Counted from the stretch's first letter, positions 42,083 through 54,856 are shown. The stretch is 64,000 nt of DNA from a bacterium (GCA_919901855.1 CAKKQC010000002.1:40296-104295); one strand, 5' to 3'. The notes: generated by a model from the sequence alone, not told the origin. Numbers and translations: made by a program.

Positions 42083-42108
42083 TCCCGGCGTCCCGGTAGA
42101 GACCGACC

Positions 42109-44504: not shown

Positions 44505-45551
44505 ATGGCCGCCACGATGCGGGCGGTGGTCCAGTTCGATCTCAAGCCGAAGTCCGTCGAGCTCCGCGACGTTCCGGTGCCGGAGCCGGGGGAGGGCGAG
44601 GCCCTCTTGCAGGTCAGCGCCGTCGCCATCTGCGGGAGCGACGTGCACCAGTATCACGCCACCCAGTCGTGGAAGGTGGCGGTGCCCGTGATCCTGGGCC
44701 ACGAGTTCTGCGGGAGGGTGGCCCGGATCGGCCGCAACGCCGCCGGATTCGCCGAGGGCGACCGGGTCGTGAGCGAGACCGCGGCCGTGATCGACGAGAC
44801 CTCGCCGCTCACACGGCAGGGGAAGTACAACCTCGATCCGGCGCGCAAAGGCTTCGGGTACGGCGTGGACGGCGCGATGGCGTCGTTCGTGAAGGTGCCC
44901 GTCCGGTGCCTGCACCGTATACCCGGGAACGTGCCCGACGAGATCGCGGCTATGGCCGAGCCGTGCTGTGTCGCCTACCAGGCTACGGTCGTGAACTCGC
45001 CCATCAAGCCCGGCGACGTCGTCGCCGTGCTCGGTCCCGGGCCGATCGGCCTGCTCTGTGCCGCCATAGCGCGCCTGCGTGGGGCCGGCGTCGTCCTGCT
45101 CGCGGGCGTGACCAAGGACCGGGCCCGGCTCGCCGCGGGCCTCACGCTCGGCGCGACGCACACGGTGGACGTCCAGACCGAGGACGGCAAGGAGCGTCTG
45201 GCGACACTGGGCGACGGGCTGGGTGCCGACGTCGTCATCGACGCCGCCGGCGTCTCGGCCGCGCTCCGGACCGCGCTCGACTGGGTCCGCCCCGGCGGCC
45301 ACATCACCAAGGTCGGCTGGGGCCGCGAGCCCCTCGCCTGCTCGCTCGATCCGCTGGTCCAGAAGGCGGTGACGCTCCAGGGCTCGTTCAGCCACACGTG
45401 GCCGGTCTGGGAATCCGTCCTCCGCCTGCTCTCGTCCGGCCAGCTCAACCCCAAGCCGCTCCTCGGTCGCGTCGCCCCTCTTGCCGATTGGCAGTCCTGC
45501 TTCGACGGCATGTCCGACGGCGCCCTCATCAAGGCGGTCCTGAAGCCGTAG
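44505..45551 (+). CDS. Zinc-dependent medium-chain alcohol/polyol dehydrogenase
   Basis: CGSDVH...GHEFCG (catalytic Zn) and GPGPIGL (NAD-binding). GTG 44496 is also in frame. Confidence 0.85.
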   Translation: MAATMRAVVQFDLKPKSVELRDVPVPEPGEGEALLQVSAVAICGSDVHQYHATQSWKVAVPVILGHEFCGRVARIGRNAAGFAEGDRVVSETAAVIDETSPLTRQGKYNLDPARKGFGYGVDGAMASFVKVPVRCLHRIPGNVPDEIAAMAEPCCVAYQATVVNSPIKPGDVVAVLGPGPIGLLCAAIARLRGAGVVLLAGVTKDRARLAAGLTLGATHTVDVQTEDGKERLATLGDGLGADVVIDAAGVSAALRTALDWVRPGGHITKVGWGREPLACSLDPLVQKAVTLQGSFSHTWPVWESVLRLLSSGQLNPKPLLGRVAPLADWQSCFDGMSDGALIKAVLKP

Positions 45552-45562
45552 CTCCGAAAGCA

Positions 45563-45585
45563 GGAGGGGCCCTTTCGGGCCCCCA
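45563..45585 (+). terminator. Stem-loop after the dehydrogenase gene
   Basis: GGGGCCC-tttc-GGGCCCC, 12 nt after the stop. No U-tract. Confidence 0.4.
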
Positions 45586-45657
45586 ATGGCGTTCGCCATC
45601 CGCCAGGAGATCGATAGCCAGGCTTAACGGTCATTTCAGCCTAACAGCGGGGAAATA

Positions 45658-45693
45658 CCTGAACGATATCTCCAGAAGCTGACGCGAAGTCCT
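45658..45693. repeat. Left ~35-bp imperfect direct repeat flanking the R-M cassette
   Basis: cctgaacgatatctccagaagctgacgcgaagtcct. Compare the right copy cccgaacgagctgt-cagaaactgacgcgaatccct at 48806-48840. Confidence 0.6.
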
Positions 45694-45794
45694 GGTAGGC
45701 ACGGGGTTAGCCTCCGGATTCCCGGGATCCCGACTCCAGCGGCCGAAGAGCGCCAGCACGAATCCGAAGATACGGAGGATGCCCCCACTTCCTG

Positions 45795-45800
45795 TACAAT
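45795..45800 (+). promoter_or_regulatory. Candidate -10 (TACAAT) for the R-M cassette operon
   Basis: cctgTACAATcatg, in an AT-richer stretch about 100 nt upstream of the small ORF and the MTase. Confidence 0.25.
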
Positions 45801-45896
45801 CATGTTGTCAATACTGGAGACGATGCGCCACGGTTGGCGTCGGGGCGATTGATCGTGGGGAAGTTGACCGGAGACAGGGGTCTCCAAGATAAGACT

Positions 45897-46052
45897 ATGC
45901 GGCTGGCGGGTAGCGATATTAGAGTCGAGACTCTTGATGACGTGTTGGTGAAGGCCGAGCGAATCTACGGCGAGGTTGAGAAGACGCTGAAGAAAGTGGC
46001 ACCCGAGTACTCGAGGCAGGCCCGCCGAGGGCGAAAGAAGGAGAAGAAATAG
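45897..46052 (+). CDS. Small Lys-rich ORF preceding the methyltransferase (possible regulatory/leader peptide)
   Basis: 51 aa from ATG 45897 (MRLAGSDIRVETLDDVLVKAERIYGEVEKTLKKVAPEYSRQARRGRKKEKK). Its 3' end contains the MTase RBS aaggagaag. Stop TAG overlaps the MTase GTG. Confidence 0.3.
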   Translation: MRLAGSDIRVETLDDVLVKAERIYGEVEKTLKKVAPEYSRQARRGRKKEKK

Positions 46053-47275
46053 TGTCCTTCTCCGTCTCTTCACCCGCGACCGTGATCGACCTCTTCTGTG
46101 GGGCGGGAGGGCTTTCGCTAGGACTGCGACATGCCGGTTGGAGAATTGTCCAGGCGATCGACAGCGATCGCTCTGCCGTTGAAACCTACCGGAACAACCT
46201 TGGTGATGACGTTGTCCAAGCGGAGATTAGCGCTAAAACCGTGCTGTGCGATTCCCTCCTGATTGCTGGTGGACCGCCGTGTCAGGGCTTTTCATCTGCG
46301 GGCCTGCGGAAGAACGGTGACGGCAGAAACAGCCTGGTCAAGGTATTCGCCACTCTGATCGCTCGATATCAACCGAGGGCGTTTCTGTTCGAGAACGTGG
46401 AGGGGTTCTTGACCGCCGAGGGAGGGGCGCGCATCGTTGATCTACTTGGAACGCTCTTGTCCGCTGGCTACAACATACATCTCCGGAAGATTAATGCGGC
46501 CAATTACGGAGTTCCCCAACATAGAAAGCGTGTGATTGCAATCGGTGGCCTCGGCTGGCAGCCGACATTTCCGGAACCGATCTGCCACGCTCGGGGCATG
46601 CCTGGGGCGTCGCGATCGTTCCGCCACCTCCCCCCGGGCCCGTCATTGGCCGAGGCGCTCAGGGGGTTACCAAAGCCAAGCAAAGAACCCCCAGGCGTAC
46701 CACAAGGCCATTTCGAAACTCCGCTGAGTAGCGTTGACGCCGACAGGATTTCACGCCTAGAGATTGGCCAGACAATGCGCGACTTGCCGGGCGCGCTACG
46801 ACATAAGAGCTACCAAAGGCGGGCGTACCGACGCGTCATGGACGGGACGCCGACGGACAAGCGCGGCGGTGCTCCGGCTGGACTTCGAAGGCTCCGTCCC
46901 GATGAACCGTGCAAAGCCATCACGGGAGCCGCCCGGAACGAATTCGTGCATCCTTTGAAAGACCGCTTCCTCACAATCCGCGAGTGTGCGCGGCTGCAAA
47001 CCTTCCCAGACGATTTTGAGTTCTTCGGCTCATCAACCGAGCAATCCACTCTGATCGGGAATGCCGTTCCTTCATTGTTGGCCGAGGTTGTTGGCGCTCA
47101 TCTACTGAAGGAATTGTTGGCGGAACCAGCAAGAGCCGACGGGGGAAAGCTCCTGAGTTTCATTCCAACAATGGCTGAAGGCATGAGTCCCATTCTGGCC
47201 AGGGTAACGCAGCAGGTTCATACCCTCTTTGGAGGCGCGTCCCCGAGTGACGTGCAGCTACCCCTGTGGGTCTGA
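46052..47275 (+). CDS. DNA (cytosine-5)-methyltransferase (Type II R-M modification subunit)
   Basis: Motif I DLFCGAGG, motif IV GGPPCQGFS, motif VI ENV, motif VIII QHRKR, C-terminal RECARLQTFPDDFEF...GNAVP. Confidence 0.9.
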   Translation: MSFSVSSPATVIDLFCGAGGLSLGLRHAGWRIVQAIDSDRSAVETYRNNLGDDVVQAEISAKTVLCDSLLIAGGPPCQGFSSAGLRKNGDGRNSLVKVFATLIARYQPRAFLFENVEGFLTAEGGARIVDLLGTLLSAGYNIHLRKINAANYGVPQHRKRVIAIGGLGWQPTFPEPICHARGMPGASRSFRHLPPGPSLAEALRGLPKPSKEPPGVPQGHFETPLSSVDADRISRLEIGQTMRDLPGALRHKSYQRRAYRRVMDGTPTDKRGGAPAGLRRLRPDEPCKAITGAARNEFVHPLKDRFLTIRECARLQTFPDDFEFFGSSTEQSTLIGNAVPSLLAEVVGAHLLKELLAEPARADGGKLLSFIPTMAEGMSPILARVTQQVHTLFGGASPSDVQLPLWV

Positions 47276-48324
47276 CGCTAACGGAACGGTCGGTGGTTGA
47301 GAAGGCCCGTTCTGGGGGTGGGGCTGACTTGGCCACCACGCTCGATGACGAGGTCTGTGCCTATCTGGTGTCCGTGATTGTCCATGACCTTGGTCTTGCC
47401 GCCAGGATTCCGGAGATGCGGGCCAAGCCAGGGCCCTTCTTCGCCTCGGATTCACCCGAGAAGCTACGACTAAAGGGAGTGGAGTTCTGGGCTGTTCTGG
47501 AACGGCTTGTTGCGGCCAAACGTGACGCGGTCACGTACTTCTCTTGCTTGGCAGCGCTCCATAAGAGCCGTCTGAAGTACGCCAGGATATTGCGGAGCCA
47601 GCCCATACCAACTATGGATCAAGTCGGCCCGAGGGGGCTTCTCCAATACGGCTCGATGAGCCCGCAGGCCTTGACAGGATTGCTGCTGTGGAGGAAGTGG
47701 TTGTACGACATCGACAACCGGGCTGCACAGGAAACCGGCTATCTTTTCGAACCGATCATCGCGCATTCAATAGGCGGTGCCCCGTTCAGTTCGAGTCAGA
47801 GTCCGATAAGGCGGCATGACGATCGCGGGAAGAGAAGGCAAGTGGACTGTGTCAGGGATAAGAGAGCCTATGAATTCAAGATGCGCGTAACGATCGCGGC
47901 ATCAGGACAAGGACGTTGGCGTGAGGAGATGGACTTTCCACTTGACTGCCGCAAGAGCGGCTTCAAACCCGTTCTGCTCGTTTTCGATGGAACGCGCAAT
48001 CCCAAGCTCACCGAGCTCACGAAAGCCTTCCTCAAGTGCGGGGGCGAAACACACGTGGGCGACCATGCATGGCAACACCTGGAGGATGAGGCGGGGGATG
48101 TGATGGCCAGGTTCCTCGACATCTATGTTCGAGGACCGATCCAAGCCCTCCTGAAGGAGGTGCCCGGAGATGTTCTTCCCGAACTTCGGTTGAAGATGAA
48201 CAAACACCGTCTTGTCGTTGCTGTTGGCGGTGAGAGTATGCAGGTCAAGAGGGCCTCGAGGAGATCAGTTGACACGGAGGACCCGATGCCCGTTGACGTT
48301 GGCGACGAATCCCCGGGAGTCTGA
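47266..48324 (+). CDS. Putative Type II restriction endonuclease (PD-(D/E)xK-like) cognate to the m5C MTase
   Basis: GTG 47266 overlaps the MTase stop by 10 nt. 352 aa with no recognisable family. Candidate PD...(D/E)xK: VDCVRD...EFK. Position and overlap are typical of R genes. Confidence 0.55.
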   Translation: MGLTLTERSVVEKARSGGGADLATTLDDEVCAYLVSVIVHDLGLAARIPEMRAKPGPFFASDSPEKLRLKGVEFWAVLERLVAAKRDAVTYFSCLAALHKSRLKYARILRSQPIPTMDQVGPRGLLQYGSMSPQALTGLLLWRKWLYDIDNRAAQETGYLFEPIIAHSIGGAPFSSSQSPIRRHDDRGKRRQVDCVRDKRAYEFKMRVTIAASGQGRWREEMDFPLDCRKSGFKPVLLVFDGTRNPKLTELTKAFLKCGGETHVGDHAWQHLEDEAGDVMARFLDIYVRGPIQALLKEVPGDVLPELRLKMNKHRLVVAVGGESMQVKRASRRSVDTEDPMPVDVGDESPGV

Positions 48325-48371
48325 GGAAGTCCTGTCCTGCGGAAGTCTGATTGATACCATTGGGGTGAACC

Positions 48372-48842
48372 ATGAAGAAGCCGAAAACTCTGGAGCCGAT
48401 CCATCCCGGGGAGATACTCCTGGAGGAGTTCATGAAGCCGATGGGGATCAGCATCAACCGGCTGGCCCGTGACCTTGCCGTCCCGCCGAACCGGGTGAGC
48501 GGTATCGTCAACGGGGCCCGGGCGATCACGGCGGACACCGCCCTGCGGCTCGGTAAGTACTTCGGAGTGTCGCCGGAGATGTGGCTCAGGCTTCAGGCGC
48601 AATATGAACTGCGAGTTGCGCGGCACACACACCCTCGGTTCAAAGAAGCCCATCGAGCTGCTTCGCGAGATGGGAGGGATCCTCAGGTCTTCGGGCATCA
48701 CGAAGCGGGCGGCGCTCAAGATGCTCGAAGCGGCCCGCGCCGACGTCTATCGGTAGGGTTGTCCTCGACGCGGTTGTTCTTGTCTCCGTTGCTTTCGGCG
48801 GCATTCCCGAACGAGCTGTCAGAAACTGACGCGAATCCCTAA
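48372..48842 (+). CDS. higA: HigA-like HTH (XRE-family) antitoxin/controller with C-terminal read-through extension
   Basis: IHPGEILLEEFMKPMGISINRLARDLAVPPNRVSGIVNGARAITADTALRLGKYFGVSPEMWLRLQAQYEL is the canonical HigA core (~90 aa). The ORF then runs 60 more aa through the cassette boundary into the porin remnant before the first stop. Confidence 0.65.
   Translation: MKKPKTLEPIHPGEILLEEFMKPMGISINRLARDLAVPPNRVSGIVNGARAITADTALRLGKYFGVSPEMWLRLQAQYELRVARHTHPRFKEAHRAASRDGRDPQVFGHHEAGGAQDARSGPRRRLSVGLSSTRLFLSPLLSAAFPNELSETDANP
48806..48840. repeat. Right ~35-bp imperfect direct repeat flanking the R-M cassette
   Basis: cccgaacgagctgtcagaaactgacgcgaatccct. It overlaps the stop-codon region of the porin-paralog remnant. 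Confidence 0.6.
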
Positions 48843-49020
48843 CCCGGCGTCGGCGACGGGGGCGGGGATATCCAGGGCCGGGATGGGGATGCCGTTGATC
48901 GTCCGGGGGCCGGACTTCAGCCCGAACCGGAACTCGCCGCCGGGGGCGCCGTAGCGGCCCGAGGATCATCCCGCCACTGAGCAGTTCGAACCGGGCGCGT
49001 GCCATCGCCATGCCGCCGGT
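48821..49020 (-). pseudogene. Decayed 3' fragment of an outer-membrane beta-barrel gene (paralog of the 53324 gene)
   Basis: Minus-strand translation ...YGAPGGEFRFGLKSGPRTINGIPIPALDIPAPVADAGLGIRVSF* is near-identical to the C-terminus of the 53324..54856 protein. About 118 bp are ~90% identical at DNA level to 53340-53460, then homology continues with deletions. No 5' part. Confidence 0.6.
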
Positions 49021-49082
49021 TGACTCGTGCAGGCGCCGCCGTTAGAATCCCCGATCATGAACGGGGGGCGCGAGGGGCTTTT

Positions 49083-51131
49083 GTGAGGGTGATTTCCGTG
49101 TGCTGCGTGGCCATCGTGGCCGTCACGGCGGGCGCCAAGGCGGCCCAGCCGGACGCCGCCGCCGGGAATCCGTGTGCGTCTTTCTCCCGCCGGTGCGCGG
49201 AAGCCGGGGAGCTGGTGCGACGGGGCAGGCGGGAGGAGGCCAGGCAGGCCTACCGCGAGGCGATGGCACAGGCGCGGGAGCACGCCTGTCCTCCGGGAGA
49301 GGGGGGATTCGACGGCATGGCGGTGGTGACCCTCTTCGCGGGCCCCGCCGATCCGCGTTCCGCCGCCGCCGCGTGCGACTTCGTGCTGCAAGCCCATCCC
49401 ACCGGCCAGATCCGGCTGGAGGCCCTCCTGACCAAGGCCGGGGCGCACCTGGCGCTCGGCGAGCGGGCGACCGCGGACGGGATATGCCGGGGTATCATCC
49501 GGGACCTCCCGGACGACGCGACCGCCGGACCGGTGTTGTGCCGCATCGGCACGGTGGTCGGTTTCAAGGAGGAGATCGCGAGCAAGTGCGAAGCGATCAT
49601 CGGGGAGTCCACCGACCACGTCGCCACGTATCGCGAACGCAACATGGTCGAGCTGATCCGGCGGTACGGCGACGGGGGGCGTGCGCCCATCAACCTCTAC
49701 ATTCCGACGGAATGGAGATCCATGACCCCGGCGGCCAGGCTGGCCGTCTACAACCGGATTCTGGCGCGTTATCCGGCCTGCCGGCTCGCGCCCTACATCC
49801 GGTTCCTGCGGGCGAGCCTGTACCACGCGAGCGCGAACGCCGTGAGCCCGGGTACGCAAGCCGGCGGAGCCGTCCGACGCGCGGCCCGTATGCGCCAGGC
49901 GGCGGTCAGGGACTACGAATGGCTGATGGGCGGGGGGGGGAGCGGGGCGAGGTTCCCGGCTTCCTGGCCGGGGGAGGATGGCCTGGTCGGTTACCGGATC
50001 GGCGGGTCGATCCAGGCGGTTGCCGTCTGCCGGATGGGCCAGCTTCACGCCGCCGTGGATCCCCTCAGGGCCCAGTCATACTTCGGGTGGGCCATGACGA
50101 AGGCCGTCGAGGGGGTCGACTGCCACGGGGATCCTTACGGCCTGCTGGCCAGGCTGGACTGTCTCGCGATGTGGCTTGGCGGCCCCGTGTCCCTGCTGCC
50201 TCCGCGGGCGGTCGAAACCATCGCGGTCGAAGTGCTCGAATGGAAGGGCTCCGGCGGCCGGTGGGAGGGCAAGACCCGGGCGATCGGGCTCAGGCGGCTG
50301 GCGGAGTTCCACTCCCGGACCGGCGAACGGCAGAGGGCGATGGACGAGTGGCGCGGCTTCTTCGGGCAGCCCGGGACGGGAACGCCGGACACGGTCAGGG
50401 AGTTCCTGGGCGACGCCGTGGGCGCGCGCGCGGCATGGGGGGAAAGCGCGAAGCTGACGGGGAAGACGTTCCCGGTGGAAACCCGGATGGCGGCTCACGC
50501 GGTGCGGTCGGACTACCTGATCGCCTCCGGGGCGGGCGTCAAGGCGGCCCTGCTGGAACTGAGGAGGATGGAGGCGATCGGCGGGGACGGCGGGCAGGCG
50601 CCAAAGGGGGGAGACGGGGCGTTCGTGGCGCGGGCCCGCCGACGGGCGCTCGTACTGGCTGCCTACCTGAGGCTGATCGGGGACCGGCCGGACCGGGGGC
50701 GGATCCAGCAGGCGTGTGCCGGGGGCAGGAACACCGCTCTCCTGGGCGTCCTGTTCGAACAGGCCAGGTGGTGCAGGTCCAACCTCGACTGGTGGAAGCG
50801 GAGCCTGGCCCGGGGCGGTCCTTTGCGCAAGCCGGGCGGTCCGGGACTGGTGACCCTGGTCGCGTGGCACTATCTGTCCGGCGGCGACTGCGACGACTTC
50901 CTGCTATTCCTGCTCGAGGCCTACCCGCAGCAGGTCGCGCCCGAGGTGGTGCGCCTTGTCCGTGCGGCGCGCGGCGACGCCGGGGTGCTGGCGGGCCGGC
51001 AGCTCGGACGGATGCTCCGGCACCGGCATCCCGATCTGCTGGACGAGCTGTTGGCGGGCGAACCGGGCGGCGGCAAGAGGCCCGGTCGCAAGGAGCCCGG
51101 GACCCGAATCCGGGCAGCGAAGAAGGGATGA
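49083..51131 (+). CDS. Hypothetical secreted protein (682 aa)
   Basis: GTG 49083 gives VRVISVCCVAIVAVTAGAKAAQPDAAAGNP (signal peptide). High-GC native composition with W/Y/C present. No domain recognised. The overlapping +2-frame 683-aa ORF (49100) is Arg-rich junk. Confidence 0.45.
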   Translation: MRVISVCCVAIVAVTAGAKAAQPDAAAGNPCASFSRRCAEAGELVRRGRREEARQAYREAMAQAREHACPPGEGGFDGMAVVTLFAGPADPRSAAAACDFVLQAHPTGQIRLEALLTKAGAHLALGERATADGICRGIIRDLPDDATAGPVLCRIGTVVGFKEEIASKCEAIIGESTDHVATYRERNMVELIRRYGDGGRAPINLYIPTEWRSMTPAARLAVYNRILARYPACRLAPYIRFLRASLYHASANAVSPGTQAGGAVRRAARMRQAAVRDYEWLMGGGGSGARFPASWPGEDGLVGYRIGGSIQAVAVCRMGQLHAAVDPLRAQSYFGWAMTKAVEGVDCHGDPYGLLARLDCLAMWLGGPVSLLPPRAVETIAVEVLEWKGSGGRWEGKTRAIGLRRLAEFHSRTGERQRAMDEWRGFFGQPGTGTPDTVREFLGDAVGARAAWGESAKLTGKTFPVETRMAAHAVRSDYLIASGAGVKAALLELRRMEAIGGDGGQAPKGGDGAFVARARRRALVLAAYLRLIGDRPDRGRIQQACAGGRNTALLGVLFEQARWCRSNLDWWKRSLARGGPLRKPGGPGLVTLVAWHYLSGGDCDDFLLFLLEAYPQQVAPEVVRLVRAARGDAGVLAGRQLGRMLRHRHPDLLDELLAGEPGGGKRPGRKEPGTRIRAAKKG

Positions 51132-51149
51132 AGGGGAAACGCCTGAAGT

Positions 51150-51660
51150 AATCGACGTCGGGGCTCGACAACGGGAAGGCCCAGGAACCCCTGGACACCA
51201 CGCCTTGCGCCCTTTCCACGAAGCGGACCCGGGAGAGGAGGCGCCGGTCGAAGTATCTGCCTCCCGCCTCCGGATAGAAGCGCAGGATGGCACCGTCGTC
51301 GGTCTTGAGGAGAAAGCCTTCGGGAATCGCCTCAATCGCCAGCGTCTGCGGGTATGGCGGGGGGTTGTTCTCGAAACGGTAGTTCCCGACGGCTGTCGTG
51401 ATCTCGTCCGTGTTGAGCGGCCCGTCAATGCAAACGATGCCGTCTTCGGCGAGGCTCGAGAGCAGAAGGCGGGTGAAGGCCTTGGTCACCGACCCGATCT
51501 CGAAGATCGGTCTTTCCCCAAGGGGAACCGGCGCCGATCCATACGTCCGGAAGAGTGTCGTGTCCCGCTGCTGAACCGCCACCACCAGCGCCGGGCACCA
51601 ACCGTCCCGAACGTACGGTTGCGCGATCGAGTCGAGTTCCGCGGCAGTCAGTTGGGCCAT
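51150..51660 (-). pseudogene. Serine-hydrolase (beta-lactamase family) remnant, internally deleted and running antisense into the neighbouring gene
   Basis: ATG 51660. ERPIFEIGSVTKAFT (S-x-x-K active-site motif), then immediately C-terminal-domain-like sequence (YRFENN...FYPEAGGRYFDRR). After about 170 aa the frame becomes Arg/Pro junk, antisense to the 49083 gene. Confidence 0.35.
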
Positions 51661-51736
51661 CCTGCCTCCTCCGCGGAACGCTTCCGATTGGGACGCATCA
51701 TATTCCTACGGTCCGGTGTCGAGGCCGCGGCGGGAA

Positions 51737-52645
51737 TCATCGCCAGGGACCTCCTGCGGGCCAGGTGACATCGAAGGCGTTCCGGCTCGAGGCAGCCTCA
51801 AGCACGGGAGGGAGGAAGAGCCGGAGGCTCTTGCCGACGGAAGCGAAGTCGGTCGGCACATCCGTGAGATCGCCCTTGGTGAGGTATGCCTTCCACTGCT
51901 GGACCTTCCCGGGCTCCTCATAGAACGCCGGGGTCAGCGAGTCCGGCACGGCGGAGGGGATCTGCGTCTGCCGGCTCTTGAACGTTGCGGCGACTGCCAG
52001 GACCAGACGTTGGCCCTCGAAGGAGAAGCTTCTTGACAGCGTCAGGAGATCGTAGAAGTCCTTCATGCGGCTGTTCGCCAGCCCCAGCGACACCATGGCA
52101 TGAAACTTCTCCGCCACGACGGACTCCCGTGAGTAAGCCAGGATTCGCGGCTCCGGACCGTCCAGCAGGACCGGGAACACGATCTCGGCGGCGGGAGGCA
52201 CGAGTGAGTCCCCGAATCCCACGTCCACTTGAAGCGTAACGCGGGCGGTTCCGAGCCGCGCGACGAGGAGCAACCGCACCCCGCCTTCATCGGTGGCGCC
52301 ACGGATGCTGTTCACCCGGATCGTATCCGGCTGAAACTCGAGGCCGTCGTCCGGAACCTGCACCGCGCAGATCTCGCGCACGACTCCGGCCACGTCAGCA
52401 GGATTGCCGGATCCCTGTCCGAGAAGGTCCAAGTCCCGGGTCGCCCGATAGGCCTGCCCGCTCCAGAACGCGAACAGCATCGCCCCCTTGAGGGTGAAGG
52501 CGTTCCTGAACCGGGATTCCCCGAGACGATACAGGAAGCGCTCGGCGGCGTACCGCTGGAGGAGCAGATTGAAGTCCATGTCCCGGTCGCGGGACAGTTG
52601 CAGGAGCCGGTCGTGAACGGAAGCGGGCAGATTGCGGGGGGTCAT
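51737..52645 (-). CDS. abiEii: AbiEii/AbiGii nucleotidyltransferase toxin (Type IV TA, DUF1814)
   Basis: 302 aa. RDLDLLG...VDVGFGD are AbiEii NTase-fold motifs. ATGA overlap with the abiEi stop. Confidence 0.85.
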   Translation of the reverse strand: MTPRNLPASVHDRLLQLSRDRDMDFNLLLQRYAAERFLYRLGESRFRNAFTLKGAMLFAFWSGQAYRATRDLDLLGQGSGNPADVAGVVREICAVQVPDDGLEFQPDTIRVNSIRGATDEGGVRLLLVARLGTARVTLQVDVGFGDSLVPPAAEIVFPVLLDGPEPRILAYSRESVVAEKFHAMVSLGLANSRMKDFYDLLTLSRSFSFEGQRLVLAVAATFKSRQTQIPSAVPDSLTPAFYEEPGKVQQWKAYLTKGDLTDVPTDFASVGKSLRLFLPPVLEAASSRNAFDVTWPAGGPWR

Positions 52646-53250
52646 GCGACCAGCGATTGCAGGTACGGCATGACGACGGTTCTCGCCCGGCAGACGCCGG
52701 CGATCCGCGTGATCTCATCCACCGTCGCTTGCCGTGAGCGGATCGAGTCGCGCAGCGCCTCCAGCGCGACGTCGAGACCTATCTTCCGCCGATAGCGGAA
52801 GCAGTCCACGACCGTCCTGGCTGGCGAGGTGATTAGGATGGTGACGCCGAGCACCTCCTGCGTAACGACGGCGTGAGTGAGCATTCGGCCGGAGAACCGG
52901 ACGATCCGGACGGGCAGACCGGACAGCCGCGGCTTGCGAGCCTTGCGGTCCAGCGCGATCCAAACTGCCTTCGGTGCCTGAGTCCCGATGCCGTGCATGT
53001 GGAGGGCGGTGAGGAGGCATACGACGGCGTGGGGGACGCGCTTGCTGACCATGACTATTGTCACATGCTCGTTCTGGGCTGCTGATGTGAGGCGGTACAG
53101 TCCTCGAGCGACCCGGCTCGCTTCGCCCCGGCGGAGCATGGATTGGATGCGATGGCGGGTACTTCCCGGTTTCTCCAGGTCGGAGGGACGGAATATCCCC
53201 GGGAGGGTCGCGCCCTTGGACGACAGATGAGCACGTCGGTCAGTTCCCAT
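52642..53250 (-). CDS. abiEi: AbiEi antitoxin / transcriptional regulator (Type IV TA)
   Basis: LPGIFRPSDL...SRVARGLYRL (N-terminal wHTH) and conserved C-terminal domain. AT-rich promoter region 53251-53320. Confidence 0.8.
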   Translation of the reverse strand: MGTDRRAHLSSKGATLPGIFRPSDLEKPGSTRHRIQSMLRRGEASRVARGLYRLTSAAQNEHVTIVMVSKRVPHAVVCLLTALHMHGIGTQAPKAVWIALDRKARKPRLSGLPVRIVRFSGRMLTHAVVTQEVLGVTILITSPARTVVDCFRYRRKIGLDVALEALRDSIRSRQATVDEITRIAGVCRARTVVMPYLQSLVA

Positions 53251-53323
53251 GCTTGTACTATGCCGCATATGGTCGGCACCTGCAAGTATGTGCCTACACT
53301 ATGATGTATGCCTTCAGGGAGTG

Positions 53324-54856
53324 CTAGAAACTCACCCGGAGGCCCAGGCCGGCGTCGGCGACGGGGGCGGGGATGTCGAGGGCCGGGATCGGGATGCCAT
53401 TGATCGTCCGGGGGCCGGACTTCAGCCCGAACCGGAACTCGCCGCCGGGGGCGCCGTACCGGCCCGCCACGTACGCCTCGATGCGCAGATGCGTGAGCAG
53501 GACCGCGCCCCAGTCGAGCCGGGCGATGGCCGTGTGGTCCGAGAGGTTGGCGATGTTGGAGAGCGACAAGGACTGGTTCCCGTTCGTGCCGGGAATCGGG
53601 GAGAACGCGTACACGGCGGCGTAATCGCGGGCGAGGTAGAAGGGGGAGAAGCCGCCCTGGAAGATGAGCCAGGGGTATATGACCTTCTTCGTGTACCCGG
53701 CGGATTGGTAGAAGTACTCGGCGCCGATCGTCATCGCTTCCTTGTCCGTGATGTTGAACGACCAGTTGAGCCCGCCCGAGACCGCGGGCGTGAGCTTGTC
53801 GGGGATGTAGGATTCGAGCAACATGCCGCCGCCAGGGATCGGGTTCGCGATCTCGCGCCAGCGCGGATGATCGGTTCCCTTCATGATCACGCCTTCGGCA
53901 TAGACATCGATGGGACCCACGCCGGCGGAGAGGTCGGCGCCCGCCCGCGGGCGGTATCCGCGCTGGGCGATGGCGTCGATCCCGAACTCGCCGGTGCCGA
54001 AGACGGCCTCGGCGCGGGCGGCTCCGCCGATGCGCCCTATGGTGCCGGCGTGGTCGAGGCTCTCGAAGAGCTCCATGGCGTACAGGTTCCAGCCGCGCTT
54101 CTCCCACGGGATATGGACCTTGAGCATGGTTTGGCCGACCCGGGCGTCGAACTGGGCCAGCACGTCGCGGCGGGCGGAGTGGAGCAGGTCGTTGGGGTTC
54201 CAGAACCGGGCCGAGCCCCAGGTCACGTGCTGGCGGCCCGCCGTGACGAATACCGATCTTCCAAGGTCGAAGTTCACCCAGGCCTGGTCGAGCGCGACCG
54301 TGGGGCCGCCGCCGGGCGAGGCGCCGAGGAAGGAGGTCGTGGAGGTGACCGTAGGGTCAAATGACATGCGCGCGCGGAGCATGCCGCGGACGCGGTCGTT
54401 GGGCCGGGCGTCGAACCAGCCGTCGGCCAGGATCGGAACCGAGTTCGTCCAGGCGTCGGGCGGCTGGTGGGTGCCGGCGGTGACTGATTGACGGAGGTAG
54501 AACTGGCCACCGATGGAGAGCGGATTCTCGGGGGCTAACTCCTGGACACCCGAAGCGGGCGTCCGCGGAGTTTCGGCGGACGCCGAAACTCCGAGCGCGG
54601 TGGCGCTTTCGGCGGGGGAGCCGAACATGTCGGCTTCGGCGGCGCGGTTGTCGCCAGGTTCAGCCGCATGGACCGAACCAGAGAAGAGGATGAGCAGGGC
54701 AAAGAGGGCGCGGGTCCTGGTACGTCCGAGGACGGACGACCTGGAGTTTCCGCGGACGCGGAAACTCCTCGTGGGGACCTCGTCGGCGTGGGCCGTACGG
54801 ATTCGGGCTTCGGCGGACCGCTCGGCGGTCTGGCCAAAGCTCGCCTCGCTGCGCAC
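53324..54856 (-). CDS. Outer-membrane beta-barrel (porin-like) protein; start codon unresolved
   Basis: Signal peptide RTRTRALFALLILFSGSVHA-AEP. Amphipathic beta-strand pattern. C-terminal ...GLRVSF* (terminal Phe typical of OM beta-barrels). No ATG/GTG/TTG within 40 codons upstream of the signal peptide. Nearest in-frame GTG at 54856. Two palindromic elements lie in the 5' region. The 338 aa further upstream in the ORF are spurious. Confidence 0.5.
   Translation of the reverse strand: MRSEASFGQTAERSAEARIRTAHADEVPTRSFRVRGNSRSSVLGRTRTRALFALLILFSGSVHAAEPGDNRAAEADMFGSPAESATALGVSASAETPRTPASGVQELAPENPLSIGGQFYLRQSVTAGTHQPPDAWTNSVPILADGWFDARPNDRVRGMLRARMSFDPTVTSTTSFLGASPGGGPTVALDQAWVNFDLGRSVFVTAGRQHVTWGSARFWNPNDLLHSARRDVLAQFDARVGQTMLKVHIPWEKRGWNLYAMELFESLDHAGTIGRIGGAARAEAVFGTGEFGIDAIAQRGYRPRAGADLSAGVGPIDVYAEGVIMKGTDHPRWREIANPIPGGGMLLESYIPDKLTPAVSGGLNWSFNITDKEAMTIGAEYFYQSAGYTKKVIYPWLIFQGGFSPFYLARDYAAVYAFSPIPGTNGNQSLSLSNIANLSDHTAIARLDWGAVLLTHLRIEAYVAGRYGAPGGEFRFGLKSGPRTINGIPIPALDIPAPVADAGLGLRVSF
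54566..54593. repeat. Palindromic repeat element copy (CGGAGTTTCGGCG-ga-CGCCGAAACTCCG)
   Basis: Perfect 13-bp arms. Lies inside the predicted mature N-terminus of the porin-like ORF (encodes GVSASAETP). Confidence 0.85.
54743..54768. repeat. Palindromic repeat element copy (GGAGTTTCCGCG-ga-CGCGGAAACTCC)
   Basis: Perfect 12-bp arms, immediately 5' of the porin signal-peptide codons, where a start codon would be expected. Confidence 0.85.

What the first reader, a model, noticed from the sequence alone, without database searches (positions are those of the whole stretch)
45658..48840. Low-GC Type II R-M cassette bounded by ~35-bp imperfect direct repeats, with no recombinase
GC content drops visibly between ~45.69 and ~48.8 kb. 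The segment carries a small Lys-rich ORF, a textbook m5C methyltransferase (DLFCGAGG, GGPPCQGFS, ENV), a 352-aa ORF overlapping its stop by 10 nt (putative PD-(D/E)xK REase, VDCVRD...EFK) and a HigA-like HTH.

It is flanked by cctgaacgatatctccagaagctgacgcgaagtcct (45658-45693) and cccgaacgagctgt-cagaaactgacgcgaatccct (48806-48840), about 29/35 identical. No integrase or transposase is present. Insertion of R-M units accompanied by long target duplications has been described for R-M gene mobility.

The right repeat coincides with the stop-codon region of a decayed porin paralog, so the repeats may instead mark a recombination between porin-3'-end-like sequences.
Basis: partly seen in the sequence, partly recalled or inferred. 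Interest (0 to 1): 0.7.

Follow-up and report, generated by a model that had tools for sequence, protein, structure and literature searches.

The report
Restriction-modification genes in an insertion hotspot
A foreign but ordinary restriction-modification gene pair sits in a 7.8-kb patchwork of defence and toxin-antitoxin genes inserted between two converging core genes, and the "flanking repeats" are leftover copies of the end of the neighbouring porin-like gene, not the ends of a mobile restriction-modification unit.

Summary
The R-M cassette is real. It has an intact m5C methyltransferase (46052-47275) and an ApaLI-family PD-(D/E)xK endonuclease (47266-48324) that overlap by 10 nt. GC3 is 0.63-0.66 against 0.94 in host genes.

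The two ~35-nt repeats exist as written (30 of 38 aligned columns), but statistical support is modest (p about 0.001-0.02).

The repeats are copies of the last ~20 nt, plus 17 nt downstream, of a porin-like outer-membrane gene (OMP, 53324-54730, minus strand). The right copy is the tail of a 141-nt duplicate of that gene's 3' end (48821-48961, 91% identical to 53326-53466).

A related metagenomic genome gives the empty site: there the OMP and alcohol-dehydrogenase (ADH) genes converge 9 nt apart. The window carries 7.77 kb between them: the R-M pair, an orphan HigA, possible toxin-antitoxin scraps, the OMP-tail copy, a TPR-like gene, a beta-lactamase fragment and AbiE.

Another relative has an intact higBA at this spot. 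In the window the R-M pair replaces higB, with its right junction at 48325-48355. The repeats therefore do not bound a self-contained R-M unit.

No recombinase is present. This is a new member of known kinds, at an insertion hotspot. Interest is low to moderate.

The parts
44505..45551 (+). Zn-dependent alcohol/polyol dehydrogenase (ADH). Last gene of a core operon and the left core flank of the insert.
   Evidence: PF00107 and PF08240. 100% match to a 348-aa protein named for a Candidatus Coatesbacteria MAG. Homology with L087 ends exactly at its stop, 45551.
45552..45657 (.). 105-nt low-GC spacer (GC 0.59) with a GC-rich hairpin at 45566-45583. Absent from the empty site.
   Evidence: Sequence, composition, no counterpart in L087.
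45655..45693 (-). Left repeat (copy L): a short relic resembling the OMP gene tail plus 17 nt downstream. The stop codon is mutated (TGG).
   Evidence: Local alignment to copy A, 30/38. Its last 21 nt are 15-17/21 identical to every OMP tail examined. A profile of native OMP tails hits it at the model's very end on the minus strand: E = 0.017 within the 501-nt edge, 2.2 in the whole window. No significant similarity beyond the core.
45834..46052 (+). 72-aa Lys-rich ORF, doubtful gene.
   Evidence: No Pfam, NCBIfam or PADLOC hit. No counterpart upstream of homologous R-M pairs. Called as 65 aa in some assemblies and not called in another.
46052..47275 (+). DNA (cytosine-5) methyltransferase, intact.
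   Evidence: PF00145 7.5e-57. TIGR00675 2.1e-49. PADLOC MTase_II 6.7e-82. 60-64% identical to the MTases paired with homologous endonucleases. GC3 0.63, z = -11.6.
47266..48324 (+). Type II restriction endonuclease, distant ApaLI-like PD-(D/E)xK family, intact. Overlaps the MTase by 10 nt.
48325..48371 (.). Right junction of the R-M unit (48325-48355) and the region just upstream of higA that still matches L085, including the last ~9 nt of higB (48355-48371).
   Evidence: Homology with the L085 higBA locus ends at window 48355, which corresponds to L085 11709. L085 keeps a 92-codon higB reading frame there, read by eye from the sequence.
48372..48842 (+). Orphan HigA antitoxin. Residues 1-~87 are homologous. 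After 48633 the native 3' end is replaced and the ORF reads through to 48842 (156 aa).
   Evidence: TIGR02607 3e-33 and PF01381. 87.8% nt identity to L085 HigA over 48355-48624, and to 48633 in the local alignment.
48634..48820 (+). Scrap DNA between HigA and the OMP-tail copy. It holds a 50-aa ORF (48604-48756) and a 24-codon frame, RVVLDAVVLVSVAFGGIPERAVRN* (48755-48829), that resembles a PIN-toxin N-terminus.
   Evidence: Translation. No Pfam support. The PIN resemblance is recalled from memory and is a lead only.
48819..48961 (-). Copy A: duplicate of the last 47 codons plus stop of the OMP gene.
   Evidence: 90.8% identity over 141 nt to 53326-53466. nhmmer E = 5.5e-37. Mosaic: 6/117 against 10/27 mismatches, Fisher p = 4e-5. 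The tail peptide GLGIRVSF* is conserved.
48999..51131 (+). TPR-like 710-aa gene with near-native composition, inside the insert. A promoter-like site lies at 49020-49048, so the true start is probably downstream of 48999.
   Evidence: ORF with GC3 0.87. Weak TPR_19 hit. TTGACT-17-TAGAAT.
51132..51660 (-). N-terminal fragment of a serine beta-lactamase-like gene.
   Evidence: PF00144 9.8e-9, covering profile positions 1-79 only.
51737..53268 (-). AbiEii toxin (51737-52645) and AbiEi antitoxin (52642-53268), an intact type IV TA / abortive-infection pair.
   Evidence: PF08843 9.1e-42, PF13338 and PF09407. PADLOC AbiEii 5e-108 and AbiEi 7.3e-66. The same OMP-AbiEi junction is present in L097.
53324..54730 (-). 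Intact porin-like outer-membrane gene (OMP), the right core flank. Its last 141 nt (copy B, 53326-53466) are the source of the repeats. It is the last gene of an ABC ATPase-FtsX-FtsX-LolA-like-OMP operon.
   Evidence: ORF and translation. 899 homologues, some named Porin or Alginate export domain. Same operon in L085, L087 and L091. Homology with L087 ends at the stop, 53324.

Best explanation
**What it is.** The low-GC segment carries a horizontally acquired, apparently functional Type II R-M operon. The m5C methyltransferase lies upstream of, and overlaps by 10 nt, an ApaLI-family PD-(D/E)xK endonuclease. The expected function is that the methylase marks host DNA and the nuclease cuts unmarked incoming DNA.

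**Where it lies.** It sits inside a 7.77-kb composite insert (45552-53323). This insert fills what is, in a related genome, a 9-nt spacer between two converging core genes: a porin-like OMP gene and an ADH gene.

**What the repeats are.**
- Copy A is a 141-nt duplicate of the OMP 3' end.
- Copy L is a ~37-nt relic next to ADH.

**Inferred history.** The locus was hit repeatedly. Insertions or recombinations at the OMP 3' end resupplied a working gene tail and stranded the older one. This left tail copies between successive cargo blocks: TA modules first, then the AbiE/TPR block.

**Favoured mechanism (inferred).** The events needed no recombinase. Candidates are one-sided homology-facilitated illegitimate recombination or insertion with long target duplication, using DNA from closely related strains.

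**Arrival of the R-M pair.** It was a separate, nested event. It landed in a resident higBA module and replaced higB, leaving an orphan, 3'-clipped higA.

**Status of each step.**
- Shown: the empty site, the 141-nt duplicate, the higA homology and the foreign composition.
- Inferred: the order of events and the recombination mechanism.
For: - **Empty site.** L087-L090 have the OMP stop, 9 nt, then the ADH stop. They carry the same flanking operons at 81-85% nt identity, and homology breaks exactly at window 45551 and 53324.
- **Variable locus.**
  - L085 has higA-higB after the OMP gene plus a 35-nt ADH remnant.
  - L098 has a DEAD helicase there.
  - L097 has AbiEi there, with the same junction as the window.
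- **Copy A.** 141 nt, 90.8% identical to the OMP 3' end.
- **Mosaic structure of copy A.** 6/117 mismatches against 10/27, p = 4e-5. The tail differs at 10 nt but at only 1 aa, so it once served as a real gene end.
- **Native tail at copy B.** Copy B carries the TAG stop seen in the tails of L085, L087, L097 and L098, followed by CACTCC, which also ends L087's spacer.
- **Copy L.** It matches every OMP tail at 15-17 of 21 nt, on the OMP strand, near the ADH stop.
- **HigA.** 88% nt identity to L085's HigA, while higB is missing and the endonuclease ends 31 nt before the homology resumes.
- **Foreign origin of the R-M genes.** GC3 z is about -11.
- **No recombinase found**.
- **Same R-M family elsewhere.** In L094 a homologous R-M pair lies between 1,252-nt direct repeats that duplicate a gene's 3' end. 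The family therefore does occur in recombinase-free, duplication-flanked insertions.
Against: - Copy L is short and its significance is modest: E = 0.14 for the core and 2.2 for the profile hit in the whole window. There is no similarity beyond ~37 nt.
- Copy L is 105 nt from the ADH stop, not 9 nt as the native tail is in L087.
- The native-like spacer follows copy B, not the distal copies.
- The higBA module in L085 has no flanking tail repeat.
- No intermediate genome was found that would fix the order of events. The closest ADH relative is 85% identical, and the closest OMP relative with any flank is a 1.7-kb contig.
- Homology-facilitated illegitimate recombination is documented from memory for naturally transformable bacteria. 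Nothing is known about transformation in this uncultured lineage.
Confidence: 0.6

Rival explanations
1. Decayed integrative islands accreted in tandem (CIME-like). Integrase-encoding elements that target the 3' end of the OMP gene integrated one after another. Each brought a substitute gene tail in its attP. The integrase and transfer genes were later lost, leaving three att-like tail copies (B, A, L) that delimit two cargo blocks. The R-M pair is cargo of the older block.
For: - Three direct copies of a gene's 3' end delimit cargo made of R-M, TA and Abi genes.
- Copy A's tail is a synonymously diverged but functional-looking mimic.
- This three-step scenario is described for ICE, IME and CIME tandems (PMC5704250, read).
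Against: - No integrase or fragment of one was found.
- The copies share no common core. A and B share positions -141 to 0, while A and L share -20 to +17, and the common 20 nt is the least conserved part between A and B.
- The gene-proximal copy B has the native tail and spacer, where an element-borne tail would be expected.
- L085's higBA has no att-like repeat.
Confidence: 0.2
2. A self-contained R-M unit (small ORF, MTase, endonuclease, HTH) inserted by itself with a ~35-bp long target duplication, as described for R-M gene mobility.
For: - Both R and M genes are present, the insert is under 20 kb and the repeats exceed 30 bp. These meet the criteria in PMC2853133 (read).
- That paper shows 46-bp repeats overlapping the 3' ends of genes in H. 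influenzae.
- The repeated sequence aligns with the single OMP tail of the empty-site genome.
- L094 shows the same R-M family between long direct repeats.
Against: - The HTH gene is HigA, and it is shared with an R-M-free higBA operon at the same locus in L085. It was therefore resident, not part of the R-M unit.
- The right repeat is 480 nt from the endonuclease stop and belongs to a 141-nt duplicate whose partner lies 4.4 kb away.
- The left repeat is not at the edge of the inserted DNA.
- Repeat identity is only 30/38.
Confidence: 0.12
3. The left repeat is a chance match. Only the 141-nt A/B duplication is real, and nothing bounds the R-M pair.
For: - The core has E = 0.14, and equally good unrelated hits exist in the window.
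- The profile hit has E = 2.2 across the whole window.
- 1.9% of random real pairs of 300-nt stretches score as high.
- There is no extension beyond 37 nt.
Against: - p = 0.001 against shuffles.
- The match falls exactly on the stop-codon end of copy A, on the OMP strand, next to ADH where the ancestral tail lay.
- 15-17 of 21 nt are identical to seven OMP tails.
Confidence: 0.25

Closest known systems
Type II R-M systems with an m5C methyltransferase and an ApaLI-like (PF09499) endonuclease
   Same: - Two-gene operon with the methylase first.
- All m5C motifs are present.
- The endonuclease has a conserved D...E.K triad and a PD-(D/E)xK-type fold.
- The same gene pair with the same 10-nt overlap occurs in unrelated metagenomic genomes.
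   Different: - This protein scores only 16 bits against RE_ApaLI, below the cut-off of 25.
- It is about 350 aa, against a 189-position profile.
- Its nearest non-self relative is 63% identical.
- Its specificity is unknown, and GTGCAC is not avoided in the window.
- It has no Vsr gene and no controller protein.
R-M insertion with long target duplication (Nobusato et al. 2000, cited from memory; Furuta, Abe and Kobayashi 2010, PMC2853133)
   Same: - Recombinase-free R-M genes near direct repeats derived from the target.
- The repeats overlap the 3' end of a gene.
- The empty site holds one copy.
   Different: - The repeats here bracket more than the R-M unit, including a resident higA.
- The repeats are unequal: 141 nt for one pair and ~37 nt for the other.
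- Copy A is a mosaic, not a clean duplicate.
- L094 is the clean example of this pattern for the same R-M family.
Tandem accretion of ICE/IME/CIME elements at the 3' end of a protein-coding gene (PMC5704250; the ICESt1/CIME elements of Streptococcus thermophilus, Pavlovic 2004, are cited there; that they sit at the fda gene and carry an R-M system is from memory)
   Same: - Three direct copies of a gene tail delimit two cargo blocks that lack integration genes.
- The cargo includes R-M and TA genes.
   Different: - No integrase-bearing relative is known.
- The three copies share no common core.
- The native tail and spacer sit at the gene-proximal copy.
Defence and toxin-antitoxin islands at hotspots between conserved core genes (general knowledge)
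   Same: R-M, AbiE, HigA and gene fragments are clustered at one variable locus that holds different cargo in each related lineage.
   Different: It is small (7.8 kb), has no mobility genes and carries relics of a flanking gene's tail at internal boundaries.

Membership tests
Type II restriction-modification system | C5-cytosine methyltransferase with the conserved motifs | tested here: met
   PF00145 7.5e-57 over profile positions 2-322 of 324. TIGR00675 2.1e-49. Motifs FCGAGG, PPCQGFS, ENV, QHRKR and GNAVP read in the translation.
Type II restriction-modification system | Adjacent endonuclease gene that co-occurs with the methylase in other genomes | tested here: met
   L092 and L094 have an MTase (60-64% identical) and an endonuclease (59-62% identical) in the same order with the same 10-nt overlap.
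Type II restriction-modification system | Nuclease fold and catalytic residues | tested here: met
Type II restriction-modification system | Sequence-specific cleavage blocked by the cognate methylation | not testable with these tools
   Needs cloning and a methylome. Site-avoidance statistics on 56 kb were uninformative.
Pfam RE_ApaLI (PF09499) | Score at or above the curated gathering threshold (25 bits) | tested here: inconclusive
   This protein scores 16.2 bits, E = 0.0088. 15 of 23 close homologues match, best 4.7e-8. The collection's precomputed table lists PF09499.18 for all listed homologues.
R-M insertion with long target duplication (criteria of PMC2853133) | R and M genes in the insert, insert under 20 kb, direct repeats over 30 bp | tested here: met
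   Both genes are present, the repeats are 3.15 kb apart and measure 36 and 35 nt at 30/38 identity. The criteria were read.
R-M insertion with long target duplication (criteria of PMC2853133) | Repeats align with a single copy at the empty site of a comparison genome | tested here: inconclusive
   Copy A aligns with the L087 OMP tail (141 nt, 76.6%). Only 21 nt of copy L align (17/21). The 17 nt downstream of the stop have no counterpart in L087.
R-M insertion with long target duplication (criteria of PMC2853133) | The repeat-bounded insert is the R-M unit itself, with no other element involved | tested here: not met
   The bounded segment includes a higA shared with an R-M-free higBA operon at the same locus in L085. 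The right repeat belongs to a 141-nt duplicate paired with a copy 4.4 kb away.
CIME-type decayed integrative element in tandem accretion | Direct att repeats that include the 3' end of the target gene and flank each block | tested here: met
   Copies B, A and L are all on the OMP strand.
CIME-type decayed integrative element in tandem accretion | A common recombination core shared by all att copies | tested here: not met
   A and B share positions -141 to 0. A and L share -20 to +17. The shared 20 nt are about 63% identical between A and B.
CIME-type decayed integrative element in tandem accretion | Related functional element with an integrase of the same site specificity | not tested
   None was seen in the loci fetched.
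HigBA toxin-antitoxin module | HigA antitoxin | tested here: met
   TIGR02607 3e-33, above the cut-off of 47.7 bits.
HigBA toxin-antitoxin module | Adjacent HigB toxin gene | tested here: not met
   L085 has higB immediately upstream of higA. In the window the homology stops at 48355 and the endonuclease occupies that space.
AbiE (type IV TA / abortive infection) | AbiEi plus AbiEii gene pair | tested here: met
   PF08843 9.1e-42, PF13338 and PF09407. PADLOC 5e-108 and 7.3e-66.

The most novel reading that the evidence does not exclude
The 3' end of a porin-like gene in an uncultured lineage (annotated Candidatus Coatesbacteria) acts as a recurrent, recombinase-independent landing pad. Defence and TA cassettes are captured there by events that duplicate the gene's tail and strand the old tail. 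This R-M family (m5C MTase plus ApaLI-like endonuclease) spreads by such duplication-generating insertions, as its 1,252-nt-repeat-flanked copy in L094 suggests.
Probability: 0.3. Interest if true: 0.45.

Novelty: new member of a known kind. Interest (0 to 1): 0.3.

Why it matters
The case shows how a locus between two converging core genes can pile up defence and addiction modules (R-M, AbiE, HigA) without any mobility gene. It also shows that relics of a flanking gene's tail can be mistaken for the ends of a mobile cassette.

The empty site, the higBA-only state and the composite state in related metagenomic genomes give a small natural series for studying recombinase-free gene capture. The L094 locus adds a clean example of long target duplication for the same R-M family.

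None of this changes current understanding. It documents known processes in a poorly known phylum.

Tried and rejected
- **Genome-collection scan with the ADH flank.** The best hit was 65% identical, in other phyla.
- **Exact look-ups of my ORF versions of ADH and the endonuclease.** Both failed because my start codons differ from the gene callers'.
- **Metagenome scan with the OMP protein.** It returned only the two relatives already found.
- **ADH homologue search for a closer empty site.** Nothing lies between 100% and 85% identity. The 73% relative, L107, is not next to an OMP gene.
- **Extending copy L into a longer OMP fragment.** Not significant: p = 0.06 against shuffles and 0.28 against window controls.
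- **OMP-tail repeat flanking higBA in L085.** None found.
- **Remnants of higB or its promoter at the left edge.** None found.
- **Recognition-site avoidance.** GTGCAC occurs 14 times against 12.9 expected. No 6-nt palindrome is clearly avoided in 56 kb.
- **PIN identity of the 24-codon fragment.** No Pfam hit, so it stays a lead.
- **Profile search of PDB sequences.** No hit.
- **Foldseek against the PDB.** Only a weak hit to EcoO109I.
- **Plasmid and phage collections.** The endonuclease family is essentially absent.
- **tRNA and Rfam scans.** Empty, so there is no tRNA-type integration site.
- **HTH gene as an R-M controller protein.** Rejected, because it is HigA with an orthologue in a higBA operon.

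Full report
**1. Is the observation in the sequence?**

Yes, largely. The two strings are at 45658-45693 and 48806-48840. The best local alignment between the two edges is 30 matches in 38 columns with two 1-nt gaps.

GC is 0.589 for 45552-48820. One-kb windows outside the insert average 0.692 +/- 0.032. The drop begins directly after the stop of the upstream dehydrogenase gene (45551), not at 45.69 kb.

- **Methyltransferase.** ORF 46052-47275 is a C5-cytosine methyltransferase (PF00145 7.5e-57; TIGR00675 2.1e-49). All the quoted motifs are in its translation.
- **Endonuclease candidate.** The 352-aa ORF 47266-48324 overlaps the methylase by 10 nt.
- **HTH protein.** The downstream HTH protein is HigA (TIGR02607 3e-33).
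- **Small ORF.** The 72-aa Lys-rich ORF has no family match. It has no counterpart in homologous R-M loci, so I treat it as doubtful.
- **Recombinases.** None was found in the insert or among the ten neighbouring ORFs that were scanned. The window has no tRNA gene and no Rfam hit.

Support for the repeat is modest:
- p = 0.001 against shuffles and 0.019 against random pairs of real 300-nt stretches.
- The ungapped 16-nt core has E = 0.14 in the whole window, and unrelated hits score as well.

**2. The R-M pair is real, intact and foreign.**

- The endonuclease has more than 2,800 homologues of about 350 aa, most of which align over 93-100% of its length. This supports the GTG start at 47266. 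All listed homologues carry a precomputed RE_ApaLI hit.
- The window protein itself scores only 16 bits against that Pfam model, below the cut-off of 25. Fifteen of 23 aligned relatives match it, the best at 4.7e-8.
- D194, E203 and K205 are invariant.
- In two unrelated metagenomic genomes the same methylase-endonuclease pair occurs with the same 10-nt overlap. One of them (L092) has a Vsr gene behind the pair.
- GC3 is 0.63 for the methylase and 0.66 for the endonuclease. Sixteen host genes average 0.936 +/- 0.026, so z is about -11.
- The nearest non-self homologue is 63% identical.
- The family is essentially absent from the plasmid and phage collections.
- Specificity cannot be inferred. 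The ApaLI site is not avoided in the window.
- The source is a groundwater MAG annotated as Candidatus Coatesbacteria.

**3. What the repeats are.**

On the minus strand, the right repeat reads ...GLGIRVSF-stop. A self-comparison showed that 48821-48961 is 90.8% identical over 141 nt to 53326-53466.

The second stretch is the 3' end of an intact, porin-like outer-membrane gene on the minus strand (53324-54730). It is the last gene of an ABC ATPase-FtsX-FtsX-LolA-like-OMP operon. Its homologues are named Porin or Alginate export domain in Myxococcota.

The right repeat is the last 20 nt of copy A plus 17 nt downstream of its stop.

The left repeat (copy L) reads ...GLRVSFW on the same strand:
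- Its last 21 nt are 15-17/21 identical to all seven OMP tails examined.
- A profile of native tails hits it at the very end of the model, with E = 0.017 within the 501-nt edge and 2.2 in the whole window.
- Beyond about 37 nt there is no significant similarity.

**4. The empty site and the variable locus.**

OMP homologues led to related metagenomic genomes:
- **L087-L090** (OMP 77% aa identical). The OMP stop is followed after 9 nt by the stop of the converging ADH gene. Behind it lie the same OMPdecase, SDR and AP-endonuclease-2 genes as on the window's left flank.
- **Break points against L087.** Nucleotide homology stops exactly at 45551 and 53324. All of 45552-53323 (7.77 kb) is therefore an insert relative to that genome.
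- **L085** (79%). The OMP gene is followed after 16 nt by higA and a 92-codon higB reading frame (read by eye; the gene caller lists 46 aa). A 35-nt remnant of the ADH 3' end follows.
- **L098** (84%). A DEAD-box helicase gene follows the OMP gene.
- **L097** (91% nt). AbiEi follows the OMP gene with the same junction as in the window.

The spot downstream of the OMP gene is thus hypervariable in this lineage.

**5. Anatomy of the insert, from ADH to OMP.**

1. 105 nt with a GC-rich hairpin.
2. Copy L.
3. The doubtful small ORF.
4. The methylase.
5. The endonuclease.
6. A 47-nt junction.
7. higA.
8. About 190 nt of scrap.
9. Copy A.
10. A TPR-like 710-aa gene with a good promoter-like site and near-native composition.
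11. An N-terminal beta-lactamase fragment.
12. AbiEii and AbiEi.
13. The native OMP tail (copy B).

The window's higA region (48355-48633) is 88% nt identical to L085's. That is as similar as the flanking core genes.
- Homology ends 17 nt upstream of the higA start, and the endonuclease stop lies 31 nt further left. The R-M pair therefore occupies the place of higB.
- The last ~45 nt of higA are also replaced, and the ORF reads through to 48842.
- The scrap after higA contains a 24-codon frame that looks to me like a PIN-toxin N-terminus. Pfam does not confirm this.

**6. Copy A is a mosaic.**

- Against copy B it has 6 mismatches in the first 117 nt and 10 in the last 27 (Fisher p = 4e-5).
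- The native tails of all relatives are 19-24/27 identical to B (22-24 for the four closer ones), and four of the five end in TAG.
- A's tail is 16-18/27 identical to every native tail examined, B included. It ends in TGA and uses TTA and ATT codons. Yet it changes only one amino acid (GLGIRVSF).
- The tail therefore looks like a gene end that once worked under selection, not a decayed copy of B.
- Copy B is followed by CACTCC, which also ends L087's 9-nt spacer. B plus spacer look native.

**7. Most likely history (inferred).**

The locus was hit several times.
- A higBA module was resident early, since it is shared with L085.
- At some stage the OMP gene carried the A-type tail, with TA genes behind it and copy L stranded near ADH.
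- Later, DNA from a close relative recombined in. That DNA carried a native OMP end followed by AbiE, the beta-lactamase fragment and the TPR gene, as in L097.
- One end would have used OMP homology. The other would have joined illegitimately 141 nt before the old stop.
- This would give the gene a native tail again and leave the old 141 nt as copy A.

This one-sided, homology-facilitated scheme explains three things: the mosaic, the native spacer after B and the absence of a recombinase. It is not demonstrated.

The R-M pair has by far the most deviant composition. It would be a separate, nested arrival that replaced higB. A 9-nt exact repeat (GAAGTCCTG, 45686-45694 and 48326-48334) abuts the R-M unit, but chance alone would give such a match about one time in ten.

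**8. Rivals.**

- **Integrase-mediated tandem accretion followed by loss of the integrases (CIME-like; PMC5704250).**
  - For: it fits three direct tail copies and the mimic-like tail of A.
  - Against: there is no integrase remnant, the three copies share no common core, and the native tail sits at the gene-proximal copy.
  - For: it meets the formal size criteria.
  - Against: the bounded segment contains a resident higA, and the right repeat belongs to a larger duplicate with another partner.
- **Copy L as a chance match.** This cannot be excluded. I give it about one in four.

**9. Comparison with what is known, and verdict.**

The R-M pair is a new member of a known family. The setting is a small defence/TA hotspot between core genes. 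The tail duplications resemble both long-target-duplication insertions and att-site accretion without fully matching either.

A clean example of long target duplication for the same R-M family turned up in passing. In L094 the homologous pair lies in 2,920 nt between 1,252-nt direct repeats (98.8% identical) that duplicate the 3' part of a neighbouring gene.

Novelty is low and interest is low to moderate.

Noticed in passing
L094:2041-7464 (JGI 3300048579, Ga0498946_000126): A homologous m5C MTase plus ApaLI-like endonuclease pair (same 10-nt overlap) lies in a 2,920-nt segment between two 1,252-nt direct repeats that are 98.8% identical. The repeats duplicate the 3' part of a Ni_hydr_CYTB/Oxidored_molyb gene. 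This is a textbook-looking R-M insertion with long target duplication.
   Followed up: partly
window 51737-53268 (-): Intact AbiEi/AbiEii pair directly downstream of the OMP stop, in a second lower-GC stretch (0.645). The same OMP-AbiEi junction is present in a 91%-identical relative, L097.
   Followed up: partly
window 51132-51660 (-): N-terminal fragment of a serine beta-lactamase-like gene (profile positions 1-79 only). The end of the TPR-like gene abuts it, and its open frame runs on into that gene.
   Followed up: no
window 48999-51131 (+), promoter-like site 49020-49048: A 710-aa TPR-like gene with near-native GC lies inside the insert, right next to the OMP-tail copy. It has the only strong sigma-70-like site of the region (TTGACT-17-TAGAAT). 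No family assignment beyond a weak TPR_19 hit.
   Followed up: no
L085:11390-12090: A relative carries an intact higB-higA pair between the OMP gene and a 35-nt remnant of the ADH 3' end. The four-gene ADH operon has been deleted there.
   Followed up: yes
window 42083-42108, compared with L087:12949-14353: The window lacks the DEAD-box helicase gene that lies between the AP_endonuc_2 gene and the 190-aa gene in L087. This is a second indel in the same neighbourhood.
   Followed up: no
window 45686-45694 and 48326-48334: An exact 9-nt direct repeat, GAAGTCCTG, abuts the small ORF-MTase-endonuclease unit on both sides. It may be a microhomology or short target duplication of the R-M insertion, but chance probability is about 0.1.
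   Followed up: partly
window 48755-48829 (+): A 24-codon frame, RVVLDAVVLVSVAFGGIPERAVRN*, resembles the N-terminus of PIN-domain toxins. It is preceded by a 50-aa ORF that could be an antitoxin C-terminus. Pfam does not confirm either.
   Followed up: partly
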